Below, one piece after another: positions 1 to 43,063 of a stretch of 43,063 nucleotides of DNA. A model generated the notes under the pieces. It saw only the letters and a list, made by a program, of their open reading frames with translations, was not told where the DNA came from and searched no databases. This stretch comes from a virus. The translations under genes were made by a program, and so were the position numbers. Each line of letters starts with the position of its first letter. Position 1 is the stretch's first letter. The DNA is taken from the IMG/VR virus record IMGVR_UViG_3300020049_009769, positions 1 through 43,063 of that record, one strand, 5' to 3'.

Positions 1-121
1 AAAGATACATTGATTACGGAGTTTGTTAAATGAGCTCAGATTGTTGTGATGGTTTTTTAACTGTTCTTTTTCTTATACTAATATTTGTATCAGTTAGACA
101 TACTTGCCATTATGTACATGA
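1..121. repeat. Terminal overlap, identical to 42943-43063 (circular closure of contig)
   Basis: Read directly: the same 121 nt (aaagatacattgattacgg...cattatgtacatga) occur at both window ends; the junction lies inside ORFs. Confidence 0.95.
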
Positions 122-16235: not shown

Positions 16236-16942
16236 TAATTAGGCTCCCATCCGCGACCGATATTGATTTGCTGCCAATCAACGCCTGTCTTATTATTAAT
16301 AAATCTTGTTTTCTTGATTGTTAAATCGGGTGGAGAAACCCAGGCAAGTTGTTTTTGAATACTTCTTAGCATTTTAGTTTTGCTTGCTGGAAATTCCATA
16401 TCTTGGTCTTGACACATATATTGCGCCAATGCGTAACGCAAGTATTCAATGTAGAAATTATCGTAAGTTAACGATAAATCTGTTGTTAAATCGACATTCG
16501 TTAAAGCAAATTTTGCGGTAATTTGCGCCGCATAGGGCGCTTGAGGTAAAAAATAAACATACAAATTTATACCATTTTCTTTACGCTCTGGGTACCACAT
16601 AAAAGGCAATGATTGAATGTTTGTAACACGACCTGTGCCGAAATAAGAGTCACGCGAAACTTTATTCGTTGGGTATCTTACATCACCGTCTAGAAAGAAA
16701 GTAAATGTTTCTATATCAATCACGTTTTCTAAGAAATACGTTTCCTGTCCTGCGACTAAGGTAAAATCGTATTTGCGATAGTAAGGTATTAAGCGCATAT
16801 CAACAGATTTCATCGCTAATAAAGCATTGAGCAGATACAGGCCCTCAGTGATTTGAGCGCCTGATACTGTCTGCAAGTCTTTTGCAACGATGCCTGATAA
16901 ATACCAGGCTCTCGTTATTAGTTCCGTTACCGTATACGCCAC
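16235..16942 (-). CDS. P22 gp4-like head-to-tail adaptor, 235 aa
   Basis: N-terminus ELITRAWYLSGIVAKDLQTVSGAQITEGLYLLNALLAM resembles gp4 DLVRAALRKLGVAS...MQDAVDDLEAMMAE. Sits between the coat region and the gp10-like gene. Confidence 0.5.
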   Translation of the reverse strand: MAYTVTELITRAWYLSGIVAKDLQTVSGAQITEGLYLLNALLAMKSVDMRLIPYYRKYDFTLVAGQETYFLENVIDIETFTFFLDGDVRYPTNKVSRDSYFGTGRVTNIQSLPFMWYPERKENGINLYVYFLPQAPYAAQITAKFALTNVDLTTDLSLTYDNFYIEYLRYALAQYMCQDQDMEFPASKTKMLRSIQKQLAWVSPPDLTIKKTRFINNKTGVDWQQINIGRGWEPN

Positions 16943-16967
16943 GCTTAATACCCTCCATCGCTATGGC

Positions 16968-17783
16968 TTATAAGAAAATCTGGAAACCGGCGACATTTAA
17001 TGCCGCTGCATCACCAGAGTTACTAACCTTATAAGAAATGCTAGGTGCGCCACTATTTAACTTAGAAGCTAAAAAGCTATTGGACGTCACAACAACCGAG
17101 GTTACTTGACCCGTAATCGCAATCGCATTACCTGTTCCACCATAAGGAGTCAGATTAAGAATACGACTTGCTGCACCCGGGGTGAATGCGCTAGCAATCC
17201 AAACCGGCGTACCGTCAATCGCAGGCACTAAGTTAGTTAATGCTGCTGCTGTATAGCTGGTTGCATTACCTGCGGTCACAGCAGTAGCTTGTGGCGCATC
17301 ATACATGATGGTGCGTGTATTGCTATTACCAAGCTTATTAACAGGTAAGAAATGCGCGCTTGAATCAGTAACCATGATATCAACCCAACGATAAATACCA
17401 TAACCGCTTGGCAGCAATGGGCCGGTTGCTGGGCCGGTTAATGAAATTAAGCATTTAGGAATGCTGGCAGTTGAGCCATAAATAAAATCACTGATGATAT
17501 AAACATAGTAAATTCTACTTGCGGTTAATGTGCCAGTATCTAAACCATTGACGCCGTTGGTTGTTGCATCAATAACAGTTACACTATCAACGCTTAAATT
17601 TGCATTAACACCGTTATAATTACCTAAATTCATGTCAAACGTATTGCTTTGGTCACGCCAAATGCCTGCGCTAACATCAATTTTAGTATTGGGGGTGGTT
17701 GCATTATTAGTTGCAACAGCACCAAACCCGACTGGGTAAGGTGCGTTGATGATTTGTGAAGAACCCGTTACATTTTGAGTCAT
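16968..17783 (-). CDS. Virion structural protein, 271 aa (possible capsid decoration/head fibre)
   Basis: ORF track; directly downstream of the coat gene; S/T/N/G-rich beta-type composition. Confidence 0.55.
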   Translation of the reverse strand: MTQNVTGSSQIINAPYPVGFGAVATNNATTPNTKIDVSAGIWRDQSNTFDMNLGNYNGVNANLSVDSVTVIDATTNGVNGLDTGTLTASRIYYVYIISDFIYGSTASIPKCLISLTGPATGPLLPSGYGIYRWVDIMVTDSSAHFLPVNKLGNSNTRTIMYDAPQATAVTAGNATSYTAAALTNLVPAIDGTPVWIASAFTPGAASRILNLTPYGGTGNAIAITGQVTSVVVTSNSFLASKLNSGAPSISYKVSNSGDAAALNVAGFQIFL

Positions 17784-17792
17784 GTTAGTTCC

Positions 17793-19115
17793 TTAGTATG
17801 TGTACAATGGGAATAAGATACGCATAGAGTTTTCAGGCACTAAGGTTGAACCCCAGATACCATCTCGTACGTAAGCTTGGTTATTTTGACCAAATTGATT
17901 ACCCCAGTAGTGACGGATGCTAGCACCTGAATCGGGATCCATCGTGTTAACAGAGTCGTAAGGTGAGTAATCAGGTAATTGCGGCATAGCCAAATAAAAT
18001 TGGTCGCCAGAGTACAACAATCCTGCCACATGCGAAGGCGCTACACGTAATTTCATGCCTGCGCTTAAAGGCGCATTCAAGTTTTGATTTTGTGTAGTTT
18101 GCCATACCAATGGTGGGAAAATTGAAATTGTCACACTGCCCGCAGTAGTTGCGGCATCGGCAGTTGCACGAATTTGCACAGGCTGAGCCGATTGCTTGTG
18201 ACCAATAAAGGTTAAGTAAAACAGATTAGTTTCACCTGTAATACCCCATTGGAATTGCAGTAAATCACCTGCTTTAATTGCATTCGCGTCAGTGGTGCCC
18301 TGTGGCTCTGTAACGGTAATGCTAGTAACGTTATAACCCGTTGGGTCATTGACGCTAACCAATGTAACAATATTGTAACCCGATGATACGCTTGCGTTAC
18401 CGATACTACCTGCAATATGTGTTGGTAATAAGTTAGAAGTATACCAGTCAGTATCTAACCATTTACCCAACTCCCAAGAGTTGGCAATTTCGTTATTACG
18501 ATTAACGGCAAATTGATTTAATCCAGTACCGACAATCGCAGGGATAGCAACATCAGGTAAAATACACTTAACACGTGGCGCAGCACCATAGTTTTTAAAG
18601 TTCGCGACCATTTGCGCTAATTGGTTATAGCTATTAATTTGAGTATAGCCATCACCGAAGAAACGATAAGGGCCTGAGTTAGTTTGTAATGCGCCAAAGT
18701 TTGCATTTTGCGGGTCATTAATACGAACGCCAGAAATTGCATTTAAAAGAATGTCAGACTCAACAATTGTACCAAATTCCTTAATTGCCGCCTCACCAAA
18801 ACGCTGCATGTAATCCTCAACGTTGAAGATAAATTGTTGCGCGGTGTATGCTGCTGAAATATTCGTTGCTTGAGTCACTGATAATGATTGTAAGCGTTGC
18901 GCAGAGGGTTGTTCAGTAATCACCAAACCATTTAGTGCGCGGTATCTTGGGCTCAAATCGAAAGAAACCGTGTCGCCCAAATTGCCGACCTTATCCTGGA
19001 AGTTCTGGAACTTCTTATTAGTCATTCGAATAGCGCAAAACGAGTTTAGCAACCAGGCTAACTCGGCCATTTGGTACGTTTGTACCTGTTGTAAAATATT
19101 AACTGGAACTGCCAT
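17793..19115 (-). CDS. Major capsid (coat) protein, 440 aa
   Basis: Follows the scaffold gene; length typical of P22-type HK97-fold coats; strong RBS context. Confidence 0.7.
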   Translation of the reverse strand: MAVPVNILQQVQTYQMAELAWLLNSFCAIRMTNKKFQNFQDKVGNLGDTVSFDLSPRYRALNGLVITEQPSAQRLQSLSVTQATNISAAYTAQQFIFNVEDYMQRFGEAAIKEFGTIVESDILLNAISGVRINDPQNANFGALQTNSGPYRFFGDGYTQINSYNQLAQMVANFKNYGAAPRVKCILPDVAIPAIVGTGLNQFAVNRNNEIANSWELGKWLDTDWYTSNLLPTHIAGSIGNASVSSGYNIVTLVSVNDPTGYNVTSITVTEPQGTTDANAIKAGDLLQFQWGITGETNLFYLTFIGHKQSAQPVQIRATADAATTAGSVTISIFPPLVWQTTQNQNLNAPLSAGMKLRVAPSHVAGLLYSGDQFYLAMPQLPDYSPYDSVNTMDPDSGASIRHYWGNQFGQNNQAYVRDGIWGSTLVPENSMRILFPLYTY

Positions 19116-19162
19116 TGCAATTACTCCAAAAGTTTAACCTTTTGAGCAATGGCTAGTAGATA

Positions 19163-19912
19163 TTAACCTCTAAAGCGTGGGTTGTTCATAAAACTCGCAA
19201 CCGACGGTTTACCATCACTCAAAGCCGATGTTCGTGACGGTTTTACTTGGCTCAAAGGTTCAGGTGCGTTTTTCTGTTGCGCAGCTGCCTTATTAGCTTT
19301 AATCGATAAGGCAATTTGATGTAATTGTTTTTGAGCTAACTTTTCCGAGCCTGCATTTACTAACGTCAATATAGACGAGTATTTAGCCGGATTAGTGCCT
19401 AGCTCTTTCATCACATCAGTCATTTCATCCGTTTCGTTAAGCATTTTTACTAACAACGGATTAGACCCAATATTCATATCTTCATAAAGCTGGATAAACT
19501 CAGGGTCTTGTGACATGGCATCATTTATCTTGTCGCTAAACTCTTCAACAATTCGCTGGCCCTCTTGCTCTGCTTTAAGGGTTTCGCGCTGTTTAACAAG
19601 CTCATTCGCGCTTGCCGCTACTAACGATTGCAAATATTGCCTTTGTTCAGGCTCTAAACCTGACAACACATCTTCGCTTTGCATTTGCTGTTGTTGCTGC
19701 GCATATTTCGCTTCAACTTCAGCCCTTGCTCTCGCTGCGGCCTTTGCTGCAATTGAATTAACTTGGGACTTCGGAATCATCTTTTCCGGTTTGGGTGCAG
19801 GCGCACTTGCTTCCGGTTCGGGTGATTCGCTGAGTGCCTCGGTTGTTTCAACGGGCGCTGGCGCTGACTCGATAACTGGCTCTGTTGTTACCTCTGTATT
19901 TATCTCATCCAC
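19163..19912 (-). CDS. Scaffolding protein, 249 aa
   Basis: Acidic A/E/Q-rich predicted helical protein between portal and coat; AGAGG RBS. Confidence 0.65.
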   Translation of the reverse strand: MDEINTEVTTEPVIESAPAPVETTEALSESPEPEASAPAPKPEKMIPKSQVNSIAAKAAARARAEVEAKYAQQQQQMQSEDVLSGLEPEQRQYLQSLVAASANELVKQRETLKAEQEGQRIVEEFSDKINDAMSQDPEFIQLYEDMNIGSNPLLVKMLNETDEMTDVMKELGTNPAKYSSILTLVNAGSEKLAQKQLHQIALSIKANKAAAQQKNAPEPLSQVKPSRTSALSDGKPSVASFMNNPRFRG

Positions 19913-20072
19913 TTAAAACCTCTTTAGCTGTTAACCTGCAACGGTAAAACTGAGTTACTTACCCAGGGAAAGGGCTTTTAACGCGCCAACGTATAACTAT
20001 TTAAAGCATAGTTGCTTAATTGATTATAGTTTAATACTTTAATGCATTTAATGCAATTAAGTCATGCATAGG

Positions 20073-20135
20073 AAATGTCGATAACATGTGCATGTTTCAA
20101 AAACATGCACAAAAAAATGAATTTTTTCGACATTT
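20073..20135. promoter_or_regulatory. Nested inverted repeats in the portal-operon/scaffold intergenic region
   Basis: Outer AAATGTCGA (20073-20081) / TCGACATTT (20127-20135); inner perfect 11-bp stem TGTGCATGTTT-caa-AAACATGCACA (20087-20111). Confidence 0.6.
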
Positions 20136-20136
20136 A

Positions 20137-20163
20137 CCTAGCCGATGCTAAGCATCGGCTAGG
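20137..20163 (-). terminator. Perfect 12-bp hairpin 12 nt downstream of the 321-aa gene (terminator or RNA-stability element)
   Basis: CCTAGCCGATGC-taa-GCATCGGCTAGG. The U-tract is poor on the minus strand (UAAAUGUCG) and better on the plus strand (UGUUUU). Confidence 0.45.
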
Positions 20164-20174
20164 TGTTTTAAAGC

Positions 20175-21140
20175 TTAAGCTACGCGTTGATAGATAGCGC
20201 TTATCACTAATGAGCCTGCGGTATAGTCTGCTGTACCGCCTGAATAAATAGCTCTCAAATTAGCGCCAGCAGCTGTGGAAGTATTCGCAGCCGCTGAGAC
20301 GGGGTAAGGTAACCCCGTTGTACCCCAATTTGAGTTTGTTAAACTTTGCGCTGTTGCTGCTGGGATGACGCTATAAACGGTAGTTCCGTCAGTGATGCTA
20401 ATATTTCTATCACCGCCGCCGCCCGAGAAGTTTGTGCCACCGCTATTTAAGTTCATCATTCGTAATTTATATCTTTTTGAACCGCTAGAAACGATAAGCG
20501 GAACATTACCACCGGCGGCTAATGCTGCTTGACCGACGGTGACGTCAAAAGAAATTAAGTTAGCGCAAGGGTCTGGGTTTTGTGTCGTGGTTTGGATATA
20601 GCCAAAAGCATTACCTGGGTCTGCGATAGTTATATTTGTTGACTGGCCAAACGAAGCATTTTGTAAAAATGAACCATAAGGTCCTCCCTGGGTTTGGGCT
20701 CTAAAAACAAAATAACTTGCTTGTGAACCTGGGTATGATTTAAAGTTGCCACCCAAGGAAGTGCTGCCCGCTTCGATATCACCTAAATGAATCGCCGTTG
20801 TATTAGACGTAACACCTAGCGTACCTTGCGTGTCTAAAAATACCGCTAAATTATTAGCAATTGTAGGTAATACAATATCACCGCTATCAACAAACAAAGT
20901 AACAATACCGCCAGAAAAGCTAACGCCTAGCTGGATATTAGTACCAGTACCGGTTGCAGCATCATAACTATAAGTGCAATCGATAATATCAGTTTGATAT
21001 AAAGTTTGTGGCTGTATTGCTTGTAAGGTTAAATAACCCGCAGATGTAATCGCTGCTAAGTTATCAGTACTGCGTAATTTACCGCGTCTTGGTGTGTTTC
21101 CAACTTGGTTGGGTGTCCCCATATCTAAAACATAACTCAT
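20175..21140 (-). CDS. Virion-module protein of unknown role, 321 aa, inserted between portal and scaffold
   Basis: ORF track; its start overlaps the portal stop by 4 nt; S/T/G/N-rich. Confidence 0.65.
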   Translation of the reverse strand: MSYVLDMGTPNQVGNTPRRGKLRSTDNLAAITSAGYLTLQAIQPQTLYQTDIIDCTYSYDAATGTGTNIQLGVSFSGGIVTLFVDSGDIVLPTIANNLAVFLDTQGTLGVTSNTTAIHLGDIEAGSTSLGGNFKSYPGSQASYFVFRAQTQGGPYGSFLQNASFGQSTNITIADPGNAFGYIQTTTQNPDPCANLISFDVTVGQAALAAGGNVPLIVSSGSKRYKLRMMNLNSGGTNFSGGGGDRNISITDGTTVYSVIPAATAQSLTNSNWGTTGLPYPVSAAANTSTAAGANLRAIYSGGTADYTAGSLVISAIYQRVA

Positions 21141-25198: not shown

Positions 25199-25267
25199 GC
25201 TGAAATCAACTAATCGGTAAGACCTTTTGGTGACGAAAGGGATGCAGGTTCGACTCCTGCTTTCAGC
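25199..25267 (+). tRNA. tRNA-like gene, non-canonical (weak D stem, 8-nt anticodon loop)
   Basis: Acceptor GCTGAAA/TTTCAGC, T arm GCAGG-TTCGACT-CCTGC, and U8, A14, G18G19, A21 in register. However the D stem has only 2-3 pairs, and the CCTTT/AAAGG stem encloses TGGTGACG. Confidence 0.45.
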
Positions 25268-25306
25268 TTCTAAAACATGCCCCGATCGCGTCATCGCCAA
25301 TATACA

Positions 25307-29165: not shown

Positions 29166-29193
29166 ATTATACAAAACTATTTAAATAAGTCAA
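29166..29193 (-). promoter_or_regulatory. Sigma70-type promoter TTGACT-N16-TATAAT for the long minus-strand block
   Basis: Reverse complement reads ttgact tatttaaatagttttg tataat, ~35 nt upstream of the rusA start. Confidence 0.7.
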
Positions 29194-29338
29194 CAATTAA
29201 TCATCAACACATAATTTATTCTTTATTAAATAATTAAAATATTCCTTTAAATAATAGTTGTCACCCCTGTTTTAAAAATAGGTTGACGGTATAAATACCC
29301 ATTAAAAATATAACTTATAAGTAATTAAATTCATTTAA

Positions 29339-29379
29339 ACTTTGTAACTATTTATAAATGACTTTGTAACTATTTATAA
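29339..29379. repeat. Two 19-bp direct repeats ACTTTGTAACTATTTATAA, 22-bp period (operator/UP-like)
   Basis: Identical copies at 29339-29357 and 29361-29379; the second ends 17 bp upstream of the early -35. Confidence 0.85.
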
Positions 29380-29396
29380 TTATTTTCAAATAACAG

Positions 29397-29425
29397 TTGA
29401 CATACTGATTTTAGTTAGCTATACT
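29397..29425 (+). promoter_or_regulatory. Early promoter TTGACA-N17-TATACT
   Basis: Read directly; ~58 nt upstream of the first early ATG (29484). Confidence 0.75.
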
Positions 29426-29483: not shown

Positions 29484-29798
29484 ATGAGCACATTAACAGG
29501 TATGAAAAAAACATTAATGAAGCCCCGCTTTTACGTTAAAGCAGACGCAATAAATGCCGTATATATTGTAGGCGATATAATAGAAGATGAAAATCAAGAC
29601 ATTATATCGCAAGATGAGTTTGAAAATAGATTAGATGACTTAGGTGAAAATGAGGTTATTTGCACATTCGTTGAATTATTCGATCCGGCTCAAGAAGAAT
29701 TTTTTGAAAATTTGCGAAAAAATTATCTTGTAAGAAAATTAACGATAAAAGGTTTTGCAGAGATTACTGACGAAAATTTAGCGGCACGCCCCATTTAG
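29484..29798 (+). CDS. First early protein, 104 aa, acidic
   Basis: ORF track; AGGAGATTTTTAAAATG start cassette; D/E-rich core (DIIEDENQDIISQDEFENRLDDLGENE). Confidence 0.75.
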   Translation: MSTLTGMKKTLMKPRFYVKADAINAVYIVGDIIEDENQDIISQDEFENRLDDLGENEVICTFVELFDPAQEEFFENLRKNYLVRKLTIKGFAEITDENLAARPI

Positions 29799-29810
29799 GA
29801 GATTTTTAAA

Positions 29811-29999
29811 ATGAATGCTAAATATATTTTAAAAAACAATCGCGGTGAAAACTTAGCGGAGTTAGCTGGTCAAGACGGGGTAATAGCGCCATCAACAGCA
29901 ATCAGGAAATTCAAAAAAAAATATGAAACCAAAAATTGCTATATTATTCGGGAATTTGTCGATGGAAGCTCGTTAATGATGCATCATTATCGAACATAA
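29811..29999 (+). CDS. Hypothetical early protein, 62 aa
   Basis: ORF track; the identical AGGAGATTTTTAAAATG cassette. Confidence 0.7.
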   Translation: MNAKYILKNNRGENLAELAGQDGVIAPSTAIRKFKKKYETKNCYIIREFVDGSSLMMHHYRT

Positions 30000-30013
30000 G
30001 GGAGGTTTAAAAA

Positions 30014-30316
30014 ATGAAAGATTATTTTTTAACGCGTAATGAAATTGATAAAATATTTAACGCAACAGAAATCGACAAAGCTTTGGATGCCGCTAATTTT
30101 GATTTTACAAACAGAGTAAGTCCAGATTTAGATTGTGCAAATGTTTACGAATTTTTTGCGTATTTAGGGCAGATGAAATCAAAAGATGGAAAAAGGTTGT
30201 ATGAGGTCAGAGCTTATTATTATCAAGATATAGATGAATGCGATGCATACGACGAACTCGATCAATTAGATTGGGACGCATGCGATGATTTCGAAATAAC
30301 AGAATATGAGGTTTAA
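30014..30316 (+). CDS. Strongly acidic early protein, 100 aa
   Basis: ORF track; by hand count ~26 D/E versus ~10 K/R; C-terminus YYYQDIDECDAYDELDQLDWDACDDFEITEYEV. Confidence 0.75.
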   Translation: MKDYFLTRNEIDKIFNATEIDKALDAANFDFTNRVSPDLDCANVYEFFAYLGQMKSKDGKRLYEVRAYYYQDIDECDAYDELDQLDWDACDDFEITEYEV

Positions 30317-30319
30317 AAA

Positions 30320-30448
30320 ATGAAAAAAATCTTAAATCATTTCAAAAGCAAACAATTTGAATATAAATGTTTAACCTTATTATTGACTGTTGCTTGTTGT
30401 TATTTTTACGGATGGTATTGTGTAGCGGCTAGCGTGGGAGGATGGTAA
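30320..30448 (+). CDS. Small membrane protein, 42 aa
   Basis: Hand translated: MKKILNHFKSKQFEYKCLTLLLTVACCYFYGWYCVAASVGGW. GAGGTTTAAAAAATG cassette identical to that of the 30014 gene. Confidence 0.6.
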   Translation: MKKILNHFKSKQFEYKCLTLLLTVACCYFYGWYCVAASVGGW

Positions 30449-30450
30449 AA

Positions 30451-30567
30451 ATGAAAGAATTTTTTAAATGTTTAGTAAAAAATATTGACAAAAATTTTGT
30501 TTATTATCTTGCTATAATAATGATAGTCAGTGGTTTAATTGGCATTATTTTTACAAAAGGCTCGTAA
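30451..30567 (+). CDS. Small membrane protein, 38 aa
   Basis: Hand translated: MKEFFKCLVKNIDKNFVYYLAIIMIVSGLIGIIFTKGS. GGGAGGA RBS. Confidence 0.55.
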   Translation: MKEFFKCLVKNIDKNFVYYLAIIMIVSGLIGIIFTKGS

Positions 30568-30668
30568 AGAATTGGCCGTCTTTGAAACAATTATTTGTTG
30601 GCACGGTCATAGGTTGAATGACACACAGGGAGCCGGTCTGTGTACCGGCATTTAATGGGAGTTAATAA

Positions 30669-31040
30669 ATGTACGCACACGAAATACTAAAAAATTTATT
30701 TGATGGATATAAATTAAGACACAAAAGCTGGGCAAAAAATGAATTTATTTGTTATGAAAATAATAATATTTATTTATGCAAAAGCTTTTTAAGTAAAGCA
30801 GATAGAGAGTATTTTCAAATATGGGAATTTTTATCAGGCTACGGCTCTAATATAAGCATAAATTACGCAATGGAAATTGTAGAGCCCACAGTACAAAATG
30901 AGGCGATCGGTTTAATTGCCGAATGGAAAGAATATTGCGAATCTTATTTAGGGTTTTCGAACCCTCAGGTTTTGCAGGGTGTATTACAATCTATTTACGA
31001 GTCTTTTGAAAATTTTTTAAAAAAAGCAAGTGAGGAATGA
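30669..31040 (+). CDS. DUF2829 (Tad2-like) paralog 1, 123 aa
   Basis: HEILKNLFDGYKLRHKSWAKNEFICY...FQIWEFL. Confidence 0.6.
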   Translation: MYAHEILKNLFDGYKLRHKSWAKNEFICYENNNIYLCKSFLSKADREYFQIWEFLSGYGSNISINYAMEIVEPTVQNEAIGLIAEWKEYCESYLGFSNPQVLQGVLQSIYESFENFLKKASEE

Positions 31041-31043
31041 AAA

Positions 31044-31505
31044 ATGAAACTTAAGTTAATTACAAATTTAATATCAGATGCAACACGTTTTCGTCGAGCG
31101 TCCTGGGAGCCTGGGTTATATATAAACATAAAAAATATAAACGACCCTACATTTTTAGATGCGTCAGAAGTAGATGCTGATGACTGGGAATTTTTCATCG
31201 ATGATAATTTATTTTCTAAAAAAATCGAATTAAAACGGGATGTACCGCGTTATCATATTAACCGTAAGCCTGCATTTTTCAATGATTGCGATTTTAACGT
31301 GTTTAACATGCCCTTTGAGCGCTCGACAACGCCCTCACCGGTCGATAGCAGCGACGAAGAGGAAGAATGGTGTATGATTGCTAAACCAGTAAAGCTCATA
31401 AACGTAAAAGAAGACCGAAAACAACGCGCTTCGTTTTTTGCTCAGAACACAAATAGAGATGAAGTTTTTGACGCAGAATGGCCAATTAAGAGGTTAAAAA
31501 AATGA
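31044..31505 (+). CDS. DUF2829 (Tad2-like) paralog 2, 153 aa
   Basis: LITNLISDATRFRRASWEPGLYINI...DADDWEFF. Confidence 0.65.
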   Translation: MKLKLITNLISDATRFRRASWEPGLYINIKNINDPTFLDASEVDADDWEFFIDDNLFSKKIELKRDVPRYHINRKPAFFNDCDFNVFNMPFERSTTPSPVDSSDEEEEWCMIAKPVKLINVKEDRKQRASFFAQNTNRDEVFDAEWPIKRLKK

Positions 31506-31843
31506 GTGAATATTTATATTTGAATGATATTAATACTGAAGAAATGGCAATTGATTATTTGCTATGTGAAATTCATACCAACCCAAAATGTAAATTAGTT
31601 ATTGAAGATAATGACATTTGCTTACATACTCAAATTCAAAAATTTATATACAAAATTTTAAATGAAATAAAAACTTCAATAGGTGAAGTTATTGTTGATG
31701 AGGATAAATGGTGGGAAGAAAACGAAGATAGAAATTATATTGAAAATAAAAAAACTATTTTTTATATCTTTTACGGTTTGCTAAGTTCCAAAAACATTAG
31801 AAAAATATTAAGATTATGTCATGAGGAGGGGTTAATTAAATGA
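31502..31843 (+). CDS. Hypothetical protein, 113 aa, interrupting the DUF2829 array
   Basis: ORF track; ATGA-type overlaps on both sides; no DUF2829 motif. Confidence 0.65.
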   Translation: MSEYLYLNDINTEEMAIDYLLCEIHTNPKCKLVIEDNDICLHTQIQKFIYKILNEIKTSIGEVIVDEDKWWEENEDRNYIENKKTIFYIFYGLLSSKNIRKILRLCHEEGLIK

Positions 31844-32172
31844 AACTCAAAGACTTAAAAACTTTTGTTAACCCTTGCGGCAAAATACGCCGTGCATGTT
31901 GGCAACAACATTTATACTTAAATGCATTAGAAATGAATAATGAAAGGTATCTATCTTATCAGGATAGGCATGCAGAAGATTGGGAAATATTTGTCGAACA
32001 AGATTTACGCGAAGGCATCCCGATTCCAAGACGTAGAATGATAGACCAGCATATTCCTGAAAGGTTTTTTTCTAATCATGAATTTTTGAGAAGAACCAAT
32101 AGACCAAATTATGAGGCGTTAAGAATTTTAGATGAAATCGATTTTTTAATTAAGAACCCGAAAGGAAAATGA
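31840..32172 (+). CDS. DUF2829 (Tad2-like) paralog 3, 110 aa
   Basis: LKTFVNPCGKIRRACWQQHLYLNA...HAEDWEIF. Confidence 0.65.
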   Translation: MKLKDLKTFVNPCGKIRRACWQQHLYLNALEMNNERYLSYQDRHAEDWEIFVEQDLREGIPIPRRRMIDQHIPERFFSNHEFLRRTNRPNYEALRILDEIDFLIKNPKGK

Positions 32173-32173
32173 A

Positions 32174-32539
32174 ATGAAACCAATTGAAATATTGCAAGCA
32201 TTAAAAGATGGTAAGAAAGTAAGAGGCAAAAATTGGGAAAAAGGTTATTTTATTTACCTTAAAGATGGATTAGTGGTTGAAAAAGACAATGACCGTTTTG
32301 ATATTTATCGATACATACATAATGAAATTAATTACAATGACTGTAGCCTAGAGCCAAATTTAAACTTTGAAATCTATGAAGATTGCGAAGATAAAACGAT
32401 TTTATTAATCAAAAATTTAAAATATATTTCTGATTCCGCCATTAATGAAAATAAAAATTTTTTCCATTATCAAATGATGGAAAATGTATTGCATGAAATT
32501 TCAAAAATATGTGAACAATTTTTAAAGGAAAAACAATAA
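32174..32539 (+). CDS. DUF2829 (Tad2-like) paralog 4, 121 aa
   Basis: MKPIEILQALKDGKKVRGKNWEKGYFIYLKDG is the closest match to the family consensus (..EAlkaLkeGkkvrRkgW...). Confidence 0.75.
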   Translation: MKPIEILQALKDGKKVRGKNWEKGYFIYLKDGLVVEKDNDRFDIYRYIHNEINYNDCSLEPNLNFEIYEDCEDKTILLIKNLKYISDSAINENKNFFHYQMMENVLHEISKICEQFLKEKQ

Positions 32540-33024
32540 TGAAACTAAGTGAAGCAATTCAAGCATTAAACGATGGCAAAATGCTCAAAAATATTTACTG
32601 GGCAAAAGAGGATTTTATTTATTTAAAAGATGGGGTTGTTTATGACCATAAAAACCATCAATTTGATTTTTGGAATTTCATAGGCCATAATTATGGCGCT
32701 TCTTGCGCTCTTGATTTATATATTAATTTCACACTTTACGAGCCACCCTACACAATCGACGATGCTTTTAATGACTTGAAAGAAATTTATGCTAAATATA
32801 AATATCAATATGACTATACCAGCGCTAAAATATATATAATAAAAATACATCATATTCATAATCAAGAGCTTTATATAGAGCCTGATAATTGGCCTATGGG
32901 AACCTATGGCACGTGGTCTCTTTTTCCTTTGTTTACCACATATGCAGATTGCGAAAAAGCCATAGAAGAAATCGGAAAAGACAAAATACTAAAAATCGCT
33001 AAAACTTTAAAGGGGATCAAATAA
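32539..33024 (+). CDS. DUF2829 (Tad2-like) paralog 5, 161 aa with a C-terminal extension
   Basis: MKLSEAIQALNDGKMLKNIYWAKEDFIYLKDGVVY...FDFWNFI. Confidence 0.7.
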   Translation: MKLSEAIQALNDGKMLKNIYWAKEDFIYLKDGVVYDHKNHQFDFWNFIGHNYGASCALDLYINFTLYEPPYTIDDAFNDLKEIYAKYKYQYDYTSAKIYIIKIHHIHNQELYIEPDNWPMGTYGTWSLFPLFTTYADCEKAIEEIGKDKILKIAKTLKGIK

Positions 33025-33299
33025 TGCCATGCCAATCCTGGACTGACCCACTAGAAGACGGGGGAGCTAAAATAAGGGAGGTTACTCGAATAAATCATTC
33101 TTTGGTCGACAAAATAGAAGATCTAAAAAGATCCTTAGATAACCACGCAAGAATGCTCTGTTATTTATTAACCTCACTCGAAAAACAAAATATCAAACAA
33201 ACGGCTTTTGATGGTTTGAATCTTAAAGATAAATTAGAGGTAGAGCTTTGGTGGTTAAATCACCAAAATTACGATAGTCAACGAAATGGGAAAAAATAA
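33024..33299 (+). CDS. Hypothetical protein, 91 aa; paralog of 33299-33568
   Basis: Shares DLKR...LC.L.T..E.Q...WW..HQ..D.QR with the next ORF. Confidence 0.7.
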   Translation: MPCQSWTDPLEDGGAKIREVTRINHSLVDKIEDLKRSLDNHARMLCYLLTSLEKQNIKQTAFDGLNLKDKLEVELWWLNHQNYDSQRNGKK

Positions 33300-33568
33300 T
33301 GGGATGCTCTTCATCGTCCGGATATGAATCAATGCCATCCGTTGTTACAAATTGCAAGTGCAGCGAAATGTATAATGACCTTAAAAGATTATACAAACAT
33401 GAAGCTGATATTATTAATCGTGTATTATGCGCTTTAGTAACGACTATAGAACAACAGGGGCATTTGAAAGAAGCTCTGGCAAATATGCCTGTTCGCGAAA
33501 GCTCAGAATTAACTGCTTGGTGGTATACTCATCAAGAATTTGATAAGCAAAGAAAGGAGATAAAATAA
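33299..33568 (+). CDS. Hypothetical protein, 89 aa; paralog of 33024-33299
   Basis: See the previous feature; N-terminus MGCSSSSG. Confidence 0.7.
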   Translation: MGCSSSSGYESMPSVVTNCKCSEMYNDLKRLYKHEADIINRVLCALVTTIEQQGHLKEALANMPVRESSELTAWWYTHQEFDKQRKEIK

Positions 33569-33768
33569 TGATTCAATACGGCAAAGGCTCAGACTTTGAA
33601 TTTGTAAGAGATACAGATTCTAATCTTTCATTTATGATAAATGAAATTACCCCATACCTAGAAATATGGACTATCGATAATCCTGTAAAATTAACAAAAA
33701 CAAATGTTGCTAAAATAATTAAGCATTTACAATCTTGGGTAGATAATGACACTATGGAGATAAAATAA
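33568..33768 (+). CDS. Hypothetical protein, 66 aa
   Basis: ORF track; C-terminal KLTKTNVAKIIKHLQSWV resembles ELEKHEVKQLIEQLTNWL of the 35030 ORF. Confidence 0.65.
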   Translation: MIQYGKGSDFEFVRDTDSNLSFMINEITPYLEIWTIDNPVKLTKTNVAKIIKHLQSWVDNDTMEIK

Positions 33769-33770
33769 AA

Positions 33771-34214
33771 ATGTTTAGTATTTTTAAAAAAGGTTTTTCT
33801 TTAACTTTTGAAAATGGATTATGCATTTCTACTCGATTTGGTGGTGGAAATTATTGTGATAATTATGAATCAGACTTTAACAGCAAAGATATTCCGCCAT
33901 GCAAAGATTGCGAAATAGCCATCCTTGACACCTTGAGGGGTGATGCATTTGTCACAAAAGAATTTTTTGGTAAAGATAACGACGTTAAAGGGTATGTTAC
34001 CTTTAATGAATGGTTAGAAATAGTTGACAAAATAAAAAATTGGAAAAGAGGTGAAAAGATGTACGCGGTCACTTATACGCGAAAAGTTTTATATGAAAGC
34101 GAGCTAGAGGCAAGTTTATTTTTAGCAAATCAATTAAGTGTATTAGAGGGTATGTTAGAATATGAAATAAAAGAAATTCAACCTTATGCAAATCATGAAA
34201 AGGAAATAAAATGA
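33771..34214 (+). CDS. Hypothetical protein, 147 aa
   Basis: ORF track; contains the FGGGNYCDNY...CEIAIL motif seen in other phage hypotheticals; a strong internal GAGGTGA-N5-ATG occurs at aa 97. Confidence 0.65.
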   Translation: MFSIFKKGFSLTFENGLCISTRFGGGNYCDNYESDFNSKDIPPCKDCEIAILDTLRGDAFVTKEFFGKDNDVKGYVTFNEWLEIVDKIKNWKRGEKMYAVTYTRKVLYESELEASLFLANQLSVLEGMLEYEIKEIQPYANHEKEIK

Positions 34215-34399
34215 CAATAGCATCTAACCTAATGGAAATTTACAAAGAAGATTCAACATGTGAATTTAGCAAAATAATCCAAGAATTACAAACTAATTAC
34301 AAGGATTTCAATACTAGAACATTTACATTTAAAGACGGTTCACAAATAAAAAGAATAAATGAAGGCTCAAGTATAGTTAAATATGAGGAAATAAAATGA
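34211..34399 (+). CDS. Hypothetical protein, 62 aa
   Basis: ORF track; ATGA overlaps; ends in KYEEIK. Confidence 0.65.
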   Translation: MTIASNLMEIYKEDSTCEFSKIIQELQTNYKDFNTRTFTFKDGSQIKRINEGSSIVKYEEIK

Positions 34400-34584
34400 A
34401 AAAAATAAATGATTATATTTTATTGCTCTGCAATGACACACGCCATTTATCAGGTATCGTCAAATCAAGGCTGCAAGATGGTTATGAATTATACGGCAAT
34501 CCTATATTTGAAAATGACCCCAATGACCCTGACGAATTTATAGCAGGGCAAGCTATGATTAAATATGAAGAAGAAATAAAATGA
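34396..34584 (+). CDS. DUF1737-like small protein, 62 aa
   Basis: LQDGYELYGNP...GQAMIKY resembles the DUF1737 pattern (..eGW.p.G....QAm); ends in KYEEEIK. Confidence 0.55.
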   Translation: MKKINDYILLLCNDTRHLSGIVKSRLQDGYELYGNPIFENDPNDPDEFIAGQAMIKYEEEIK

Positions 34585-34778
34585 AATTCAGGTTAATAAT
34601 TACTTATGAATTTGATAAACACATCAACCATTACAAGGATTTTAAATCGTTAGATCTTTTAAATGATTATATTTTAAAACAAATAAAAGATGGAAAGCAT
34701 CTAGTAAACAATAAAGATGGTACAATTTGGAATATAACAGATTGGTGTATTTACGATTGGGAAAAAACCGCCGGCTAA
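34581..34778 (+). CDS. Hypothetical protein, 65 aa
   Basis: ORF track; ATGA overlap with the upstream gene. Confidence 0.65.
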   Translation: MKFRLIITYEFDKHINHYKDFKSLDLLNDYILKQIKDGKHLVNNKDGTIWNITDWCIYDWEKTAG

Positions 34779-34797
34779 AAACAGGAAGATTTACAAA

Positions 34798-35016
34798 ATG
34801 AATTATTCAATATTTGAAGCGCTTGCAAAAATAAGCATAGCCATAACTTTTATTACTGGGGCAATTTTAATTTTATCTGCTATTGCAAAAGGATTCATAG
34901 AAATATATGAAAATCTATGCAAGAATAAAGTAAATGAAAAAAAATTTTATTTTTTTGCCGAAGATAAGAAAACACCCCAAAGCCCAGAAAGTGAAATTAG
35001 CATCTTAAGTTTGTAG
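34798..35016 (+). CDS. Single-TM membrane protein, 72 aa; paralog of 326-580
   Basis: MNYSIFEALAKISIAITFITGAILILSAIAKGFIEIYEN...FYFFAED. AGGAAGATTTACAAAATG cassette. Confidence 0.7.
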   Translation: MNYSIFEALAKISIAITFITGAILILSAIAKGFIEIYENLCKNKVNEKKFYFFAEDKKTPQSPESEISILSL

Positions 35017-35029
35017 GAGCCCTCACAAA

Positions 35030-35272
35030 ATGAAATTAACAAAAGATTTTGATATTAACGATGATGAATTTGATTATCAAACGCTAAGAACAGATAATCA
35101 TGAAATATTTATATCGAATCATTATAGCAACCTAAAACCAAATGAAAATTTTTTAGTAATAAACGCTAGCAGCCTTGACGATAACAGCTGCGGAGAGCTA
35201 GAAAAACACGAAGTAAAGCAATTAATCGAACAATTGACAAATTGGTTGGAAACAGGGAAATTTAAAAAATGA
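35030..35272 (+). CDS. Hypothetical protein, 80 aa
   Basis: ORF track. Confidence 0.65.
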   Translation: MKLTKDFDINDDEFDYQTLRTDNHEIFISNHYSNLKPNENFLVINASSLDDNSCGELEKHEVKQLIEQLTNWLETGKFKK

Positions 35273-35721
35273 CTAATATGAAATTTGAAAACTTAGAACA
35301 ATTCAAAGAATGGTTTAAAAAAGATATTTTACCAACACTTGATTTTGATTATTTAGTTAACAGATTAGCTAAAAATAATGCAATTAGCTTAACTAATTTT
35401 TTATCGACCGCCAATACAGACGATAAAAATTCTTTTATTAAAAACACGGCATCAATTTTCTTAGAAAATGGCACCACTCTTTTACCTTCCATTTATCATT
35501 TAGACCGAAGATGGGCGGCAATCCTTTATATTGATTCATTTTTTAACTTAAGACTTGATTTTTATGAAGTAAATCTGCCTTACGAGGAATTTTTAGATGT
35601 AATTATTTATACATTCATGAAAGACAAAAAATATACCCGAGAAGATGAAAAAGAAGTTTCAGACTATTATTTAAATCTTTACGAAAAATACAAAAAGGAA
35701 AATTTACAAAATGAATCATGA
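35269..35721 (+). CDS. Hypothetical protein, 150 aa
   Basis: ORF track; ATGA overlap. Confidence 0.65.
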   Translation: MTNMKFENLEQFKEWFKKDILPTLDFDYLVNRLAKNNAISLTNFLSTANTDDKNSFIKNTASIFLENGTTLLPSIYHLDRRWAAILYIDSFFNLRLDFYEVNLPYEEFLDVIIYTFMKDKKYTREDEKEVSDYYLNLYEKYKKENLQNES

Positions 35722-35929
35722 GGAAATGTTAAAAGACATCAAAGAAACAAGCAAAAAATTAGCTCAGCAAAAAATAGAAACTATTAAAAATAACAAACGA
35801 TATCGTCGTCAACAAAATATACAGGACTTGGGAGATGTTAGCATAGCTTTTATTATTGTATCTTTCCTTGTCATTATGTGTATATGCGCATGTTGCTTAG
35901 GTATTAAATTATTTTATTTAATTTTTTAA
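35711..35929 (+). CDS. C-terminally anchored membrane protein, 72 aa
   Basis: AGGAAAATTTACAAAATG cassette; TM segment VSIAFIIVSFLVIMCICACCLGIKLFYLIF. Confidence 0.65.
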   Translation: MNHEEMLKDIKETSKKLAQQKIETIKNNKRYRRQQNIQDLGDVSIAFIIVSFLVIMCICACCLGIKLFYLIF

Positions 35930-35956
35930 CAAGTAAATAAAAGGAAAATTTACAAA

Positions 35957-36280
35957 GTGAACCCATTTAAACTTATTAGACAAAAATTCATAGGATATAC
36001 ACCCGAAGAAGTTGACAACATTGCCAAGCCTGGTGATTGTTTTTATGCTACAAAATTTGATAACCTAAGCATGAGAGGTGAAACAGTCATTCAAATTAGT
36101 ATTGAAGCTTGTAAAAACTTTACTTCTTTTACTGGCGTTACCTCAAATATCATCCAGGAAAATAATTATAAAATATTTATCATGTGCATTCCAGGCGCTT
36201 ACGAACTTTATGGATTTGGTGGATTAGCAAAAAATATTGCACCACTCTTTAACATTAAATATTTTAGGAAAGAAAAATGA
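35957..36280 (+). CDS. Hypothetical protein, 107 aa (GTG start)
   Basis: AGGAAAATTTACAAAGTG cassette, identical apart from the start codon. Confidence 0.6.
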   Translation: MNPFKLIRQKFIGYTPEEVDNIAKPGDCFYATKFDNLSMRGETVIQISIEACKNFTSFTGVTSNIIQENNYKIFIMCIPGAYELYGFGGLAKNIAPLFNIKYFRKEK

Positions 36281-36326
36281 TCAATGCACAACAGATTTTT
36301 AGATTCAACAACAACCGAGAGGAAAA

Positions 36327-36719
36327 ATGCGCATGAAAAAAGAAGACTTAAAGGATGAATTAAAATTTCATACCGAAAGAATGAAAGAAAGTTATGCTAA
36401 AGATGATGAATGCAAAAATATTTTGAAAGAAAATATAGAACAATATTCTAAGCTTATAACTAGTTGCGAGAAACTTGCAGAATTTATCAAAATGCAACTT
36501 TCGGTTAATTTTAGGGATGAGGGTTATGAAAAAGCTATTGATATTTGCCAAAAAATAGAAAACGCTTACAAACGAGGAATCATTAACATGGCAGAAAAAT
36601 ATAAAATCGACCCAGGAACTGTGGGTAATGTTATGTTTATTTGCGGATTAGAAGTAAATCAACAATCATTAGAGCAATCATTAAAAATTTTTAAAGAAAT
36701 CATTGAGAATGAAAACTAA
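36327..36719 (+). CDS. Hypothetical helical protein, 130 aa
   Basis: ORF track; immediately upstream of the HTH gene. Confidence 0.65.
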   Translation: MRMKKEDLKDELKFHTERMKESYAKDDECKNILKENIEQYSKLITSCEKLAEFIKMQLSVNFRDEGYEKAIDICQKIENAYKRGIINMAEKYKIDPGTVGNVMFICGLEVNQQSLEQSLKIFKEIIENEN

Positions 36720-36915
36720 TTATACAAAATACATGGGCGATATTGATAAAATGTCGCTCAAACAAATGCGAGCAGCGTTGGGCTTGACTCAAATGCAACT
36801 TGCCTCTAAACTTAGCCTTCCTCTTAAATCAATCCAGGTCTGGGAAAACAACCCCAAAAAAGCTAATCCGATTGTAAACGAATACTTACAATTCATGCTT
36901 TCACAACAAAAATGA
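36709..36915 (+). CDS. XRE/Cro-type helix-turn-helix regulator
   Basis: SLKQMRAALGLTQMQLASKLSLPLKSIQVWENNPKK matches the XRE HTH pattern. Start uncertain (TTG 36703, ATG 36709/36733/36751). Confidence 0.7.
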   Translation: MKTNYTKYMGDIDKMSLKQMRAALGLTQMQLASKLSLPLKSIQVWENNPKKANPIVNEYLQFMLSQQK

Positions 36916-42703: not shown

Positions 42704-42975
42704 TTTATGATAGCGCGCCATCAGATTTTTTAAATGAAAAAATTGAGATTGTAATTACAAGATTTGTGCCTGATTTAGAAAACCCAGGCTCAGATAGTGG
42801 TTTATATGGCATAAATGTTCGCACTCAATTTGAAGAGGGTGTTTGGTATTCCTACGGCATTCCTGACCCTGTTACAGTAGAGTCCGTTATCGAAAAGCTT
42901 ATGGGTGTTTACAATACGGCTAAAAAGCAAAATGAAATGAGAAAAGATACATTGATTACGGAGTTTGTTAAATGA
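42700..42975 (+). CDS. Hypothetical protein, 91 aa
   Basis: ORF track; no TM segment; ends in EFVK like the endolysin candidate. Confidence 0.65.
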   Translation: MIYDSAPSDFLNEKIEIVITRFVPDLENPGSDSGLYGINVRTQFEEGVWYSYGIPDPVTVESVIEKLMGVYNTAKKQNEMRKDTLITEFVK

Positions 42976-43063
42976 GCTCAGATTGTTGTGATGGTTTTTT
43001 AACTGTTCTTTTTCTTATACTAATATTTGTATCAGTTAGACATACTTGCCATTATGTACATGA
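42943..43063. repeat. Terminal overlap, identical to 1-121
   Basis: Read directly. Confidence 0.95.
42972..43063 (+). CDS. 5' part of the 47-aa TM protein gene, truncated by the window end (complete copy at 30-173)
   Basis: Same sequence as 30-121. Confidence 0.6.
   Translation, partial: MSSDCCDGFLTVLFLILIFVSVRHTCHYVH

What the first reader, a model, noticed from the sequence alone, without database searches (positions are those of the whole stretch)
30669..33024. Five diverged DUF2829 (Tad2-like) genes in six consecutive positions: a possible multi-specificity immune-signal sponge battery
Five of six consecutive early ORFs open with the same ~30-aa module:
- HEILKNLFDGYKLRHKSWAKNEFICY
- LITNLISDATRFRRASWEPGLYINI
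- LKTFVNPCGKIRRACWQQHLYLNA
- IEILQALKDGKKVRGKNWEKGYFIYLKDG
- SEAIQALNDGKMLKNIYWAKEDFIYLKDG

A second aromatic motif follows 15-25 aa later (FQIWEFL, ADDWEFF, AEDWEIF, FDIYRYI, FDFWNFI). This is the signature I recognise for DUF2829, the family that includes the Thoeris anti-defence sponge Tad2. The C-terminal parts differ completely in length and sequence (110-161 aa in total), and an unrelated 113-aa ORF is embedded in the array.

A single phage carrying five diverged copies in its first-expressed operon is unusual. It suggests either a set of sponges tuned to different signalling nucleotides (gcADPR isomers, CBASS/Pycsar/type III CRISPR cyclic nucleotides) or obligate hetero-oligomers. To my knowledge neither has been described as an organised locus.
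Basis: partly seen in the sequence, partly recalled or inferred. Interest (0 to 1): 0.85.

Follow-up and report, generated by a model that had tools for sequence, protein, structure and literature searches.

The report
Tandem array of short Tad2-like genes
A complete 43-kb phage genome carries five diverged copies of a short version of the Tad2-like (DUF2829) domain in six consecutive small genes; the array is real and is conserved in a distant relative, but similar arrays exist in other phages and the residues that known Tad2 immune-signal sponges use to hold their ligand are mostly missing, so the 'sponge battery' idea is plausible but unproven.

Summary
ORFs A (30669-31040), B (31044-31505), C (31840-32172), D (32174-32539) and E (32539-33024) share an N-terminal ~55-aa module. 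ORF X (31502-31843) is unrelated.

The module belongs to the PF11195 (DUF2829/Tad2-like) superfamily, in a short-form subfamily:
- A profile of the five modules retrieves 80 proteins from 1.84 billion; 76 are PF11195.
- An independently built profile hits only these five ORFs in the window (E 4e-14 to 6e-4; next best 1.3).
- An AlphaFold model of D (pLDDT 83) matches only Tad2 structures in the PDB.

The link to verified Tad2 sponges is remote. Only one of the main ligand-contact residues (the first Trp) is kept. Asn26 and Trp73 are missing in all five, and the beta2-beta5 insert is largely missing.

The array, including X, is conserved with rearrangement in a diverged relative (terminase 59% identical), so the paralogs are old and maintained.

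It is not unique. Lactobacillus phage Iacchus has five clustered copies, and IMG/VR contigs have up to eight. I found no paper describing such arrays.

Most likely these are oligomeric counter-defence proteins. Nucleotide-signal sequestration is an inference (~0.35).

The parts
29397..29425 (+). Sigma-70-like promoter candidate (TTGACA-17-TATACT, 11/12) at the head of the rightward operon of small genes (29484-36915) that contains the array. A divergent partner lies at 29193-29166 on the - strand.
   Evidence: This is a consensus match only. The number of such sites in the region is not above the shuffled expectation, so the assignment rests on position and on the quality of the match.
30669..31040 (+). 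ORF A, 123 aa: short-form DUF2829 head (about residues 1-55) plus a C-terminal tail of the same class as D's.
   Evidence: PF11195 17.5 bits; A-D 29% over 127 columns; E 2.3e-11; E 4.4e-7. No ortholog was found in L001.
31044..31505 (+). ORF B, 153 aa: divergent short-form DUF2829 head plus a long tail with a 'TTPSP' motif and an acidic tract.
   Evidence: E 2.5e-10; E 5.9e-4; B/C against the short-form family: hhalign probability 96%, E 3e-9, 53 columns. There is a full-length ortholog, P0056, on L001 (37% identity, E 2e-27).
31502..31843 (+). ORF X, 113 aa: unrelated orphan embedded in the array. It is conserved with the array in the related phage.
   Evidence: no significant family. No hit with any module profile. 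39% identical to L001 5631-5960, next to that phage's array.
31840..32172 (+). ORF C, 110 aa: divergent short-form DUF2829 head (paralog of B) plus a short basic tail.
   Evidence: B-C 30% over 84 columns; E 4.8e-9; E 1.1e-4. Its ortholog is L001 5957-6268.
32174..32539 (+). ORF D, 121 aa: the best-matching DUF2829 head plus a predicted C-terminal helical hairpin.
   Evidence: PF11195 25.1 bits against a cut-off of 25; Tad2 8v3e, E 0.09; E 3.7e-14; AF2 pLDDT 82.7; top 12 PDB matches are all Tad2. Its ortholog is L001 6715-7059.
32539..33024 (+). ORF E, 161 aa: DUF2829 head (44% identical to D's head) plus a distinct ~80-aa tail.
   Evidence: 16.4 bits; phrog_3474, E 1.9e-5; D-E 37% over 98 columns; E 5.3e-9. 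The tail is conserved in the L001 7244-7990 two-module protein. D and E share 81% DNA identity over their first 42 nt (repeat D9).

Best explanation
The locus is an old, maintained tandem array of five paralogs from a short-form subfamily of the DUF2829/Tad2-like superfamily. It sits in the rightward operon of small accessory genes of a complete ~42.9-kb podophage with a P22-type portal.

Each protein has a ~55-residue head and a paralog-specific tail. In the model of D the head is an N-terminal helix, a short antiparallel sheet carrying the invariant Trp, and a small helix (shown for D, inferred for the others).

The mechanism I consider most likely is an inference:
- The heads oligomerise as Tad2 does, forming pockets at the interfaces between protomers.
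- Those pockets sequester small nucleotide-derived immune signals.
- The diverged paralogs cover different ligands.
- The genes are expressed together from a host-type promoter by translational coupling.

What is shown: the paralogy, the superfamily membership, the Tad2-like fold of D, and the conservation of the array. What is not shown: the oligomeric state, ligand binding, the anti-defence effect and the timing of expression.

My confidence in the identity (an array of short-form DUF2829 paralogs) is about 0.9. The confidence given below is for the sponge mechanism.
For: Family membership:
- The five-module profile finds 80 non-self proteins at E <= 1e-3 in 1.84e9 proteins; 76 of the 80 are PF11195.
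- The subfamily profile hits all solved Tad2 sponges.
- B/C against the short-form family gives hhalign probability 96%.

Fold: the AF2 model of D has pLDDT 82.7. Its 12 best PDB matches are all Tad2 (probability 0.69-0.98, target-normalised TM up to 0.57), and its viral matches are DUF2829/Tad2-like proteins.

Functional precedent: tested Tad2 homologs together inhibit CBASS, Pycsar and Thoeris types I, II and IV, and specificity shifts easily (PMC12393519). Tad2 domains are often fused to other sponge domains to block several signals (PMC12265669).

Maintenance: the array and X are conserved, with one-to-one orthologs for B, C, D and E, in a phage whose terminase is only 59% identical. This argues for non-redundant, selected functions.

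Module-module association: 57 of 80 relatives carry two modules in one chain.

Partial pocket signature: the Trp equivalent to SPO1 W25 is invariant. B and C keep Ser/Thr and acidic residues at the S76/T78/D79 positions.

Context: a near-consensus promoter lies upstream, and the genes are tightly coupled.
Against: - The canonical ligand contacts are mostly missing. N26 becomes A/E/Q/E/A. W73 is absent in all five. D79 is kept only in C (Asp) and B (Glu).
- The beta2-beta5 insert, which forms the cyclic-dinucleotide pocket in HgmTad2, is largely missing.
- The five-module profile does not reach any solved Tad2 directly. hhalign against the verified sponges gives only 43% over 27 columns and 6% for B/C.
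- Known sponges are short single-domain homo-oligomers, often under 100 aa. These proteins are 110-161 aa with conserved tails.
- I found no experimental data for any short-form or tandem-module DUF2829 protein.
- Foldseek E-values against the PDB are modest (0.03-0.5).
Confidence: 0.35

Rival explanations
1. Scaffold-plus-effector reading. The DUF2829 head is only an oligomerisation or stability module. The paralog-specific tails are the working parts, each binding a different host protein (a defence protein or a host-takeover target). The array would then be a battery of protein inhibitors, not of nucleotide sponges.
For: The tails are conserved between the two phages: the B tail with P0056 (37% over the full length), the D tail with L001 6715-7059, and the E tail with L001 7244-7990. 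The tail classes differ in charge and predicted structure. The canonical Tad2 ligand residues are largely missing from the heads. The proteins are longer than known sponges.
Against: Every family member with a known function is a small-molecule sponge. Most relatives of this subfamily consist of heads only, as one or two modules without tails, so the head must have a function of its own. No tail matches any known domain.
Confidence: 0.3
2. Hetero-oligomer reading. The paralogs co-assemble into one mixed complex, so the array encodes the subunits of a single machine rather than independent proteins.
For: 57 of 80 relatives fuse two diverged modules in one chain. The L001 ortholog of E carries two modules. 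The genes are translationally coupled, with overlapping or abutting stop and start codons, which favours fixed stoichiometry. The whole set, including X, is co-conserved.
Against: The window's two subgroups do not map onto the N-type and C-type modules of the tandem proteins. All characterised sponges are homo-oligomers. Gene order differs between the two phages, and A has no ortholog in L001. Both points are easier to reconcile with independent units.
Confidence: 0.15
3. Other or no counter-defence role. The short-form DUF2829 proteins may do something unrelated to immunity, such as regulation, nucleic-acid binding or metabolite binding. Alternatively the array is nearly neutral duplicated accessory DNA.
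For: The short-form subfamily has no experimental characterisation. PHROG relatives are all 'unknown function'. No anti-defence or defence profile matched. The closest terminase relatives lack the array altogether, so it is dispensable for the phage type.
Against: Neutral duplicates would not persist as one-to-one orthologs at 30-40% identity across phages with 59% terminase identity. Intact ORFs with ribosome-binding sites argue against decay. Patchy presence among relatives is typical of counter-defence genes.
Confidence: 0.15

Closest known systems
Tad2 sponges (SPO1 Gp34.65/Tad2, ModTad2/MoTad2, HgmTad2 = AcrIIA7, SptTad2; Pfam PF11195)
   Same: Same Pfam superfamily. Shared elements are the N-terminal helix with the 'GKKxxRxxW' element, including the Trp equivalent to SPO1 W25, and the C-terminal 'A-x-D-W' element in B and C. 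The model of D matches only Tad2 structures in the PDB. Both are small phage proteins encoded among accessory genes.
   Different: The domain is ~55 aa instead of ~80-100, with the beta2-beta5 insert largely missing. The 'WN' Asn and the 'W-x-x-S-x-T-D' Trp are missing. The proteins carry extra conserved C-terminal tails (110-161 aa in total). There are five paralogs in tandem rather than one gene. No functional data exist.
Short-form and tandem-module DUF2829 proteins of other phages (e.g. Lactobacillus phages Iacchus, Dionysus and Semele; IMG/VR contigs L106 and L151)
   Same: Same short module. These also occur as clustered multi-gene arrays: five genes within 4 kb in Iacchus, and seven and eight module ORFs in L151 and L106.
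   Different: No detectable orthology to the window's genes beyond the module. Most of those proteins are heads only, or two heads in one chain. The window's copies carry paralog-specific tails, and an unrelated conserved gene (X) is embedded in the array.
Multi-sponge fusion proteins (Tad2-Acb4, Tad2-Sequestin/PF21825)
   Same: Both combine several signal-binding units in one genetic element to cover several immune signals. A Tad2-like head followed by a helical C-terminal part is superficially like a Tad2-Sequestin fusion.
   Different: Here the units are separate genes of one family, not fusions of unrelated sponge families. Neither PF21825 nor PF13876 was detected in the tails, even with the reporting limit set at E = 10.

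Membership tests
PF11195 (DUF2829 / Tad2-like domain) | Score at or above the Pfam gathering threshold (25 bits) | tested here: inconclusive
   D 25.1 bits (just met); A 17.5, E 16.4 and B 11.2 (below); C no hit.
PF11195 (DUF2829 / Tad2-like domain) | Significant profile-level homology to bona fide family members | tested here: met
   76 of the 80 proteins retrieved by the five-module profile are PF11195. External profiles hit only A-E in the window. B/C against the short-form family: hhalign probability 96%, E 3e-9. The subfamily profile hits all solved Tad2 at E 2.5e-6 to 3e-4. Caveat: a deliberately harsh leave-out profile lost B and C.
PF11195 (DUF2829 / Tad2-like domain) | Tad2-like fold: N-terminal helix followed by an antiparallel sheet | tested here: met
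   Tested for D only. AF2 pLDDT 82.7. The top 12 PDB matches are all Tad2 (probability 0.69-0.98, TMt 0.26-0.57, E 0.03-0.5). BFVD matches are DUF2829/Tad2-like proteins at E down to 2e-4. A, B, C and E were not modelled.
Functional Tad2 sponge (gcADPR / His-ADPR pocket) | 'G-W-N-G-K' loop: Trp25 and Asn26 of SPO1 Tad2 (W21/N22 of HgmTad2) contact the ligand | tested here: not met
   The Trp is invariant in all five, but the Asn is replaced by A, E, Q, E and A in A-E.
Functional Tad2 sponge (gcADPR / His-ADPR pocket) | 'W-x-x-S-x-[ST]-D' motif before 'A-x-D-W' (SPO1 W73, S76, T78, D79; HgmTad2 S90, T92, D93) | tested here: not met
   The Trp is absent in all five. At the S/T/D positions B has D/S/E, C has S/Q/D and D has S/E/P. 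A and E could not be aligned there.
Functional Tad2 sponge (cyclic-dinucleotide pocket, HgmTad2/SptTad2 type) | Long insertion between beta2 and beta5 carrying R31, S47, F70 and N85 | tested here: not met
   The 25-45-residue insert of solved Tad2s falls in gaps of the subfamily profile. The window heads are ~55 aa.
Functional Tad2 sponge | Homotetramer with ligand pockets at protomer interfaces | not testable with these tools
   No multimer prediction was available. The only indirect hint is that 57 of 80 relatives carry two modules per chain.
Functional Tad2 sponge | Binds an immune signalling nucleotide and rescues phage from Thoeris, CBASS or Pycsar | not testable with these tools
   This is experimental. 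I found no data for any short-form member.

The most novel reading that the evidence does not exclude
Short-form DUF2829 arrays are a recurrent, so far undescribed way of organising counter-defence. They would be a diversifying 'sponge battery': tandem paralogs, homo- or hetero-oligomeric, that have each evolved a different pocket, and here a different tail. One phage operon would then neutralise several nucleotide immune signals, possibly including ligands not yet known. The same principle would explain the five-gene array of Lactobacillus phage Iacchus and the seven- and eight-ORF arrays in IMG/VR contigs.
Probability: 0.2. Interest if true: 0.75.

Novelty: new variant of a known kind. Interest (0 to 1): 0.5.

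Why it matters
Tad2 is the most widespread and the most functionally plastic family of phage immune-signal sponges. Only the long-form, single-gene members have been studied.

This locus, and the arrays found in passing in other phages, show that a shorter version of the domain is repeatedly expanded into tandem paralog sets. Those sets are kept for long evolutionary times.

If the paralogs bind different signals, such arrays would be a compact natural library for discovering new sponge specificities, and perhaps new immune signals.

If they act through their tails, the DUF2829 head would be a reusable oligomerisation scaffold. In that case annotating DUF2829 domains as 'Thoeris anti-defence' would be misleading for a large subfamily.

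Either outcome can be tested directly with five small, easily synthesised genes.

Tried and rejected
1. Direct similarity searches found nothing. This covers megablast and tblastn of the locus against GenBank phages, the word-indexed protein search for D, B and the five-module alignment (self hits only or none), and B and X against IMG/VR.
2. The single-sequence AlphaFold model of D was unusable (pLDDT 47) and cost one of the two prediction jobs.
3. The five-module profile against the PDB gave no Tad2 hit, only a spurious SnoaL match. The connection needed the deeper subfamily profile.
4. In a harsh leave-out test, a profile built from relatives chosen to be unlike B/C lost B (E 1.9) and C (E 0.14). 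Membership of B and C therefore rests.
5. The Rosetta-stone idea was rejected. It proposed that {A,D,E} and {B,C} correspond to the N- and C-modules of the tandem-module relatives and hence pair as heterodimers. In the test, A, D and E score equally on both module types, and B and C slightly prefer the N-type.
6. The metagenome scan with B+P0056 found nothing. The terminase-anchored scans of IMG/VR and the metagenomes (155 loci) yielded no further array or early-gene homologs. L001 was found separately, through P0056.
7. PADLOC gave nothing significant for any of the six ORFs. For the tails and for X, Pfam and PHROGs gave nothing significant either. There was no Sequestin (PF21825) or Acb4 (PF13876) signal in the tails.
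8. The supplementary tables of the Tad2 diversity study were not available, so I could not check whether a short-form member has been tested.
Full report
**1. What is in the sequence**

The six ORFs exist exactly as reported, all on the + strand:
- A, 30669-31040 (123 aa)
- B, 31044-31505 (153 aa)
- X, 31502-31843 (113 aa)
- C, 31840-32172 (110 aa)
- D, 32174-32539 (121 aa)
- E, 32539-33024 (161 aa)

Each is preceded by a Shine-Dalgarno-like sequence, and neighbouring genes abut or overlap. The opposite strand holds only short unsupported ORFs.

The window has an exact 121-nt terminal direct repeat, so it is a complete, circularly assembled genome of about 42.9 kb. It is a podophage with the following layout:
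- a P22-type portal, and a terminase about 50% identical to those of Pseudoalteromonas and Vibrio phages;
- a leftward operon running from RusA through terminase and portal into the structural genes;
- a rightward operon of about 25 small orphan genes (29484-36915), which contains the array and ends at an HTH gene;
- replication genes after that (Rep-O-like, AAA_24, Gp157).

The divergent region at 29166-29425 holds two near-consensus sigma-70-like promoters. 'Early operon' is therefore plausible but inferred.

**2. Is the shared module real, and is it DUF2829?**

Pairwise comparison separates {A,D,E} from {B,C}, with only a weak B-D link. Direct Pfam scores against PF11195 are weak: D 25.1 bits (cut-off 25), A 17.5, E 16.4, B 11.2, C none. 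D alone reaches a solved Tad2 at E 0.09. All five are orphans in word-indexed searches.

The decisive evidence is at profile level:
- A profile of the five heads, searched against 1.84 billion representative proteins, found 80 non-self proteins at E <= 1e-3, the best at 4.7e-10. 76 of the 80 are PF11195.
- A profile made from those external domains hits only A-E among the 609 six-frame segments of the window, at E 5e-9 to 2e-13, with the next best at 1.7.
- That profile is partly circular, so I repeated the test with 95 modules retrieved independently from IMG/VR and from phage Iacchus. The results were D 3.7e-14, E 5.3e-9, A 4.4e-7, C 1.1e-4, B 5.9e-4, next best 1.3.
- The B/C pair alone aligns to the short-form family over 53 columns with hhalign probability 96%.
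- A deliberately harsh leave-out test lost B and C. They are the most divergent members, but they are members.

**3. Fold**

With a 44-sequence alignment, AlphaFold2 gave a usable model of D. Mean pLDDT is 82.7, and above 90 for residues 1-40. The model has a helix at 3-11, strands at 15-18, 27-30 and 33-36, a helix at 44-51, a strand at 65-68, and then a C-terminal helical hairpin (71-91 and 96-120).

In the PDB its 12 best Foldseek matches are all Tad2 structures: ModTad2, SPO1 Tad2 and SptTad2. Probabilities are 0.69-0.98 and target-normalised TM reaches 0.57. Nothing else comes close, although the E-values are modest at 0.03-0.5. In the viral library the matches are DUF2829/Tad2-like proteins down to E 2e-4.

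**4. How close to verified sponges?**

The relationship is remote.
- The subfamily profile hits every solved Tad2 at E 2.5e-6 to 3e-4. The alignments show that this subfamily keeps only the N-terminal helix with 'GKKxxRxxW' and the C-terminal 'S..D..A.DW' element. The 25-45-residue beta2-beta5 insert of the solved proteins falls into gaps.
- The five-module profile reaches no solved Tad2 directly.
- hhalign against the four verified sponges gives 43% probability over 27 columns, and 6% for B/C.

I mapped the published ligand contacts through an HMM-guided alignment. The published contacts are SPO1 W25, N26, W73 and D79, plus S76 and T78, and HgmTad2 W21/N22 and S90/T92/D93, with R31, S47, F70 and N85 in the insertion for cyclic dinucleotides. 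The mapping gives:
- W25: invariant in all five.
- N26: replaced by A/E/Q/E/A.
- W73: absent in all five.
- S76/T78/D79: D/S/E in B, S/Q/D in C, S/E/P in D; not alignable in A and E.

The canonical gcADPR pocket signature is therefore not met, and the cyclic-dinucleotide insertion is largely missing. This lowers the claim 'these are Tad2 sponges'. It does not exclude sponge-like action, because ligand specificity in this family is known to be very plastic.

**5. Conservation of the array**

One external hit, P0056, is a full-length homolog of B (37% identity, E 2e-27). It lies on a 10-kb contig, L001, from a phage whose terminase is 59% identical to the window's.

L001 has the same divergent layout and a syntenic array:
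- an X homolog (39% identity);
- a C-like gene;
- the B ortholog;
- a D-like gene;
- a 63-aa gene;
- a 248-aa protein with two modules and an E-like tail.

Nearest-neighbour analysis gives one-to-one pairs: B with L1_6265, C with L1_5957, D with L1_6715, E with L1_7244. A has no partner. The duplications thus predate the split of the two phages, and each paralog, with its tail, has been kept.

Within the window, the D and E heads resemble each other more than they resemble their orthologs. They share 81% DNA identity over their first 42 nt, which suggests local gene conversion.

The other relatives recovered lack the array and every other early gene of the window. This covers 75 IMG/VR loci and 80 metagenome loci anchored on the terminase. 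The array is patchy accessory content, as is typical for counter-defence genes.

**6. Is a five-copy array unusual?**

It is uncommon but not unique.
- A tblastn search with the module consensus found five places each in Lactobacillus phages Iacchus and Dionysus.
- In Iacchus the five module genes lie within 4 kb, the last four nearly consecutive, and all are annotated 'hypothetical protein'.
- In a sample of 79 IMG/VR loci encoding the module, 63 have one module ORF, 12 have two, and four have 3, 4, 7 and 8. The last is from a 261-kb contig.
- 57 of 80 relatives carry two modules in one chain.
- I found no paper in the searchable library that discusses DUF2829/Tad2 arrays. What is described is the fusion of Tad2 to other sponge domains (Acb4, Sequestin), interpreted as multi-signal blocking.

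**7. Mechanism**

The best-supported reading is that these are oligomeric counter-defence proteins built on a Tad2-like head. Sequestration of nucleotide immune signals by diversified paralogs is the leading specific mechanism (about 0.35). It rests on family precedent, on the fold, on the invariant Trp and on long-term maintenance of distinct paralogs.

The main rival (about 0.3) is that the head is a scaffold and the conserved tails bind different host proteins. A hetero-oligomeric complex (about 0.15) is compatible with the tandem-module relatives and the translational coupling, but one indirect test of it was negative. A role unrelated to defence, or a nearly neutral array, is the remaining rival (about 0.15). 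Neutral duplication in particular is unlikely given the orthology pattern.

**8. Verdict**

The family assignment is supported at superfamily level, in a short-form subfamily. The functional interpretation is plausible but unproven, and the canonical pocket features that I tested are not met. The uniqueness claim is overstated.

I rate the locus a new variant of a known kind, with interest 0.5.

Noticed in passing
window 1-121 and 42943-43063: Exact 121-nt terminal direct repeat. The window is a complete, circularly assembled phage genome of about 42.9 kb.
   Followed up: yes
window 33024-33299 and 33299-33568: Immediately after the array lies a second tandem paralog pair (91 and 89 aa). Both hit phrog_11759 at about E 1e-4. 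They share 74% DNA identity over their last 54 nt and a 'WW..HQ..D.QR' C-terminus. A homolog sits in L001 at 9583-9822. Function unknown.
   Followed up: partly
window 34200-34586 (and 34780, 35251, 35693, 35939; 30002, 30308, 31490): Gene junctions in the operon come in repeated families. Examples are 'GAGGAAATAAAATGA' three times at exactly 185-nt spacing, which makes successive proteins end in '...YEE(E)IK', and 'AAAAGGAAAATTTACAAAATGAA' four times. These look like conserved translation-coupling cassettes or recombination boundary sequences. The exact 12-mer count is not significant on its own (12 of 100 shuffles reach it).
   Followed up: partly
L001 7244-7990: The ortholog of E in the related phage is a 248-aa protein with two DUF2829 modules followed by the E-type tail. 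This is a natural fusion within the array.
   Followed up: partly
L077 (Lactobacillus phage Iacchus MH809529) 16793-20797; L106 6631-12145; L151 1024-4661: Other phages carry clustered arrays of the same short module. Iacchus has five genes within 4 kb. An IMG/VR contig of 261 kb has eight module ORFs within 5.5 kb, and another contig has seven. All are unannotated. A census of such arrays was not done.
   Followed up: partly
window 32174-32215 vs 32539-32580: The 5' ends of D and E share 81% DNA identity over 42 nt (repeat D9). Their heads resemble each other more than they resemble their orthologs in L001. This suggests gene conversion between adjacent paralogs.
   Followed up: partly
window 25199-25268 (+): Marginal Rfam tRNA match (31 bits against a gathering score of 29, E 0.011). 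ARAGORN does not call it, and it lies antisense to the small leftward genes. Probably spurious.
   Followed up: partly
window 34396-34584: A DUF1737 gene (PF08410, 25.1 bits against a cut-off of 24) lies downstream of the array. A DUF1737 gene sits at the corresponding place in L001, at 8548-8721.
   Followed up: no
window 31502-31843 (ORF X): The unrelated 113-aa orphan embedded in the array is itself conserved (39% identity) next to the array in L001. It may therefore be a functional partner rather than a passenger. It has no family or structural assignment.
   Followed up: partly
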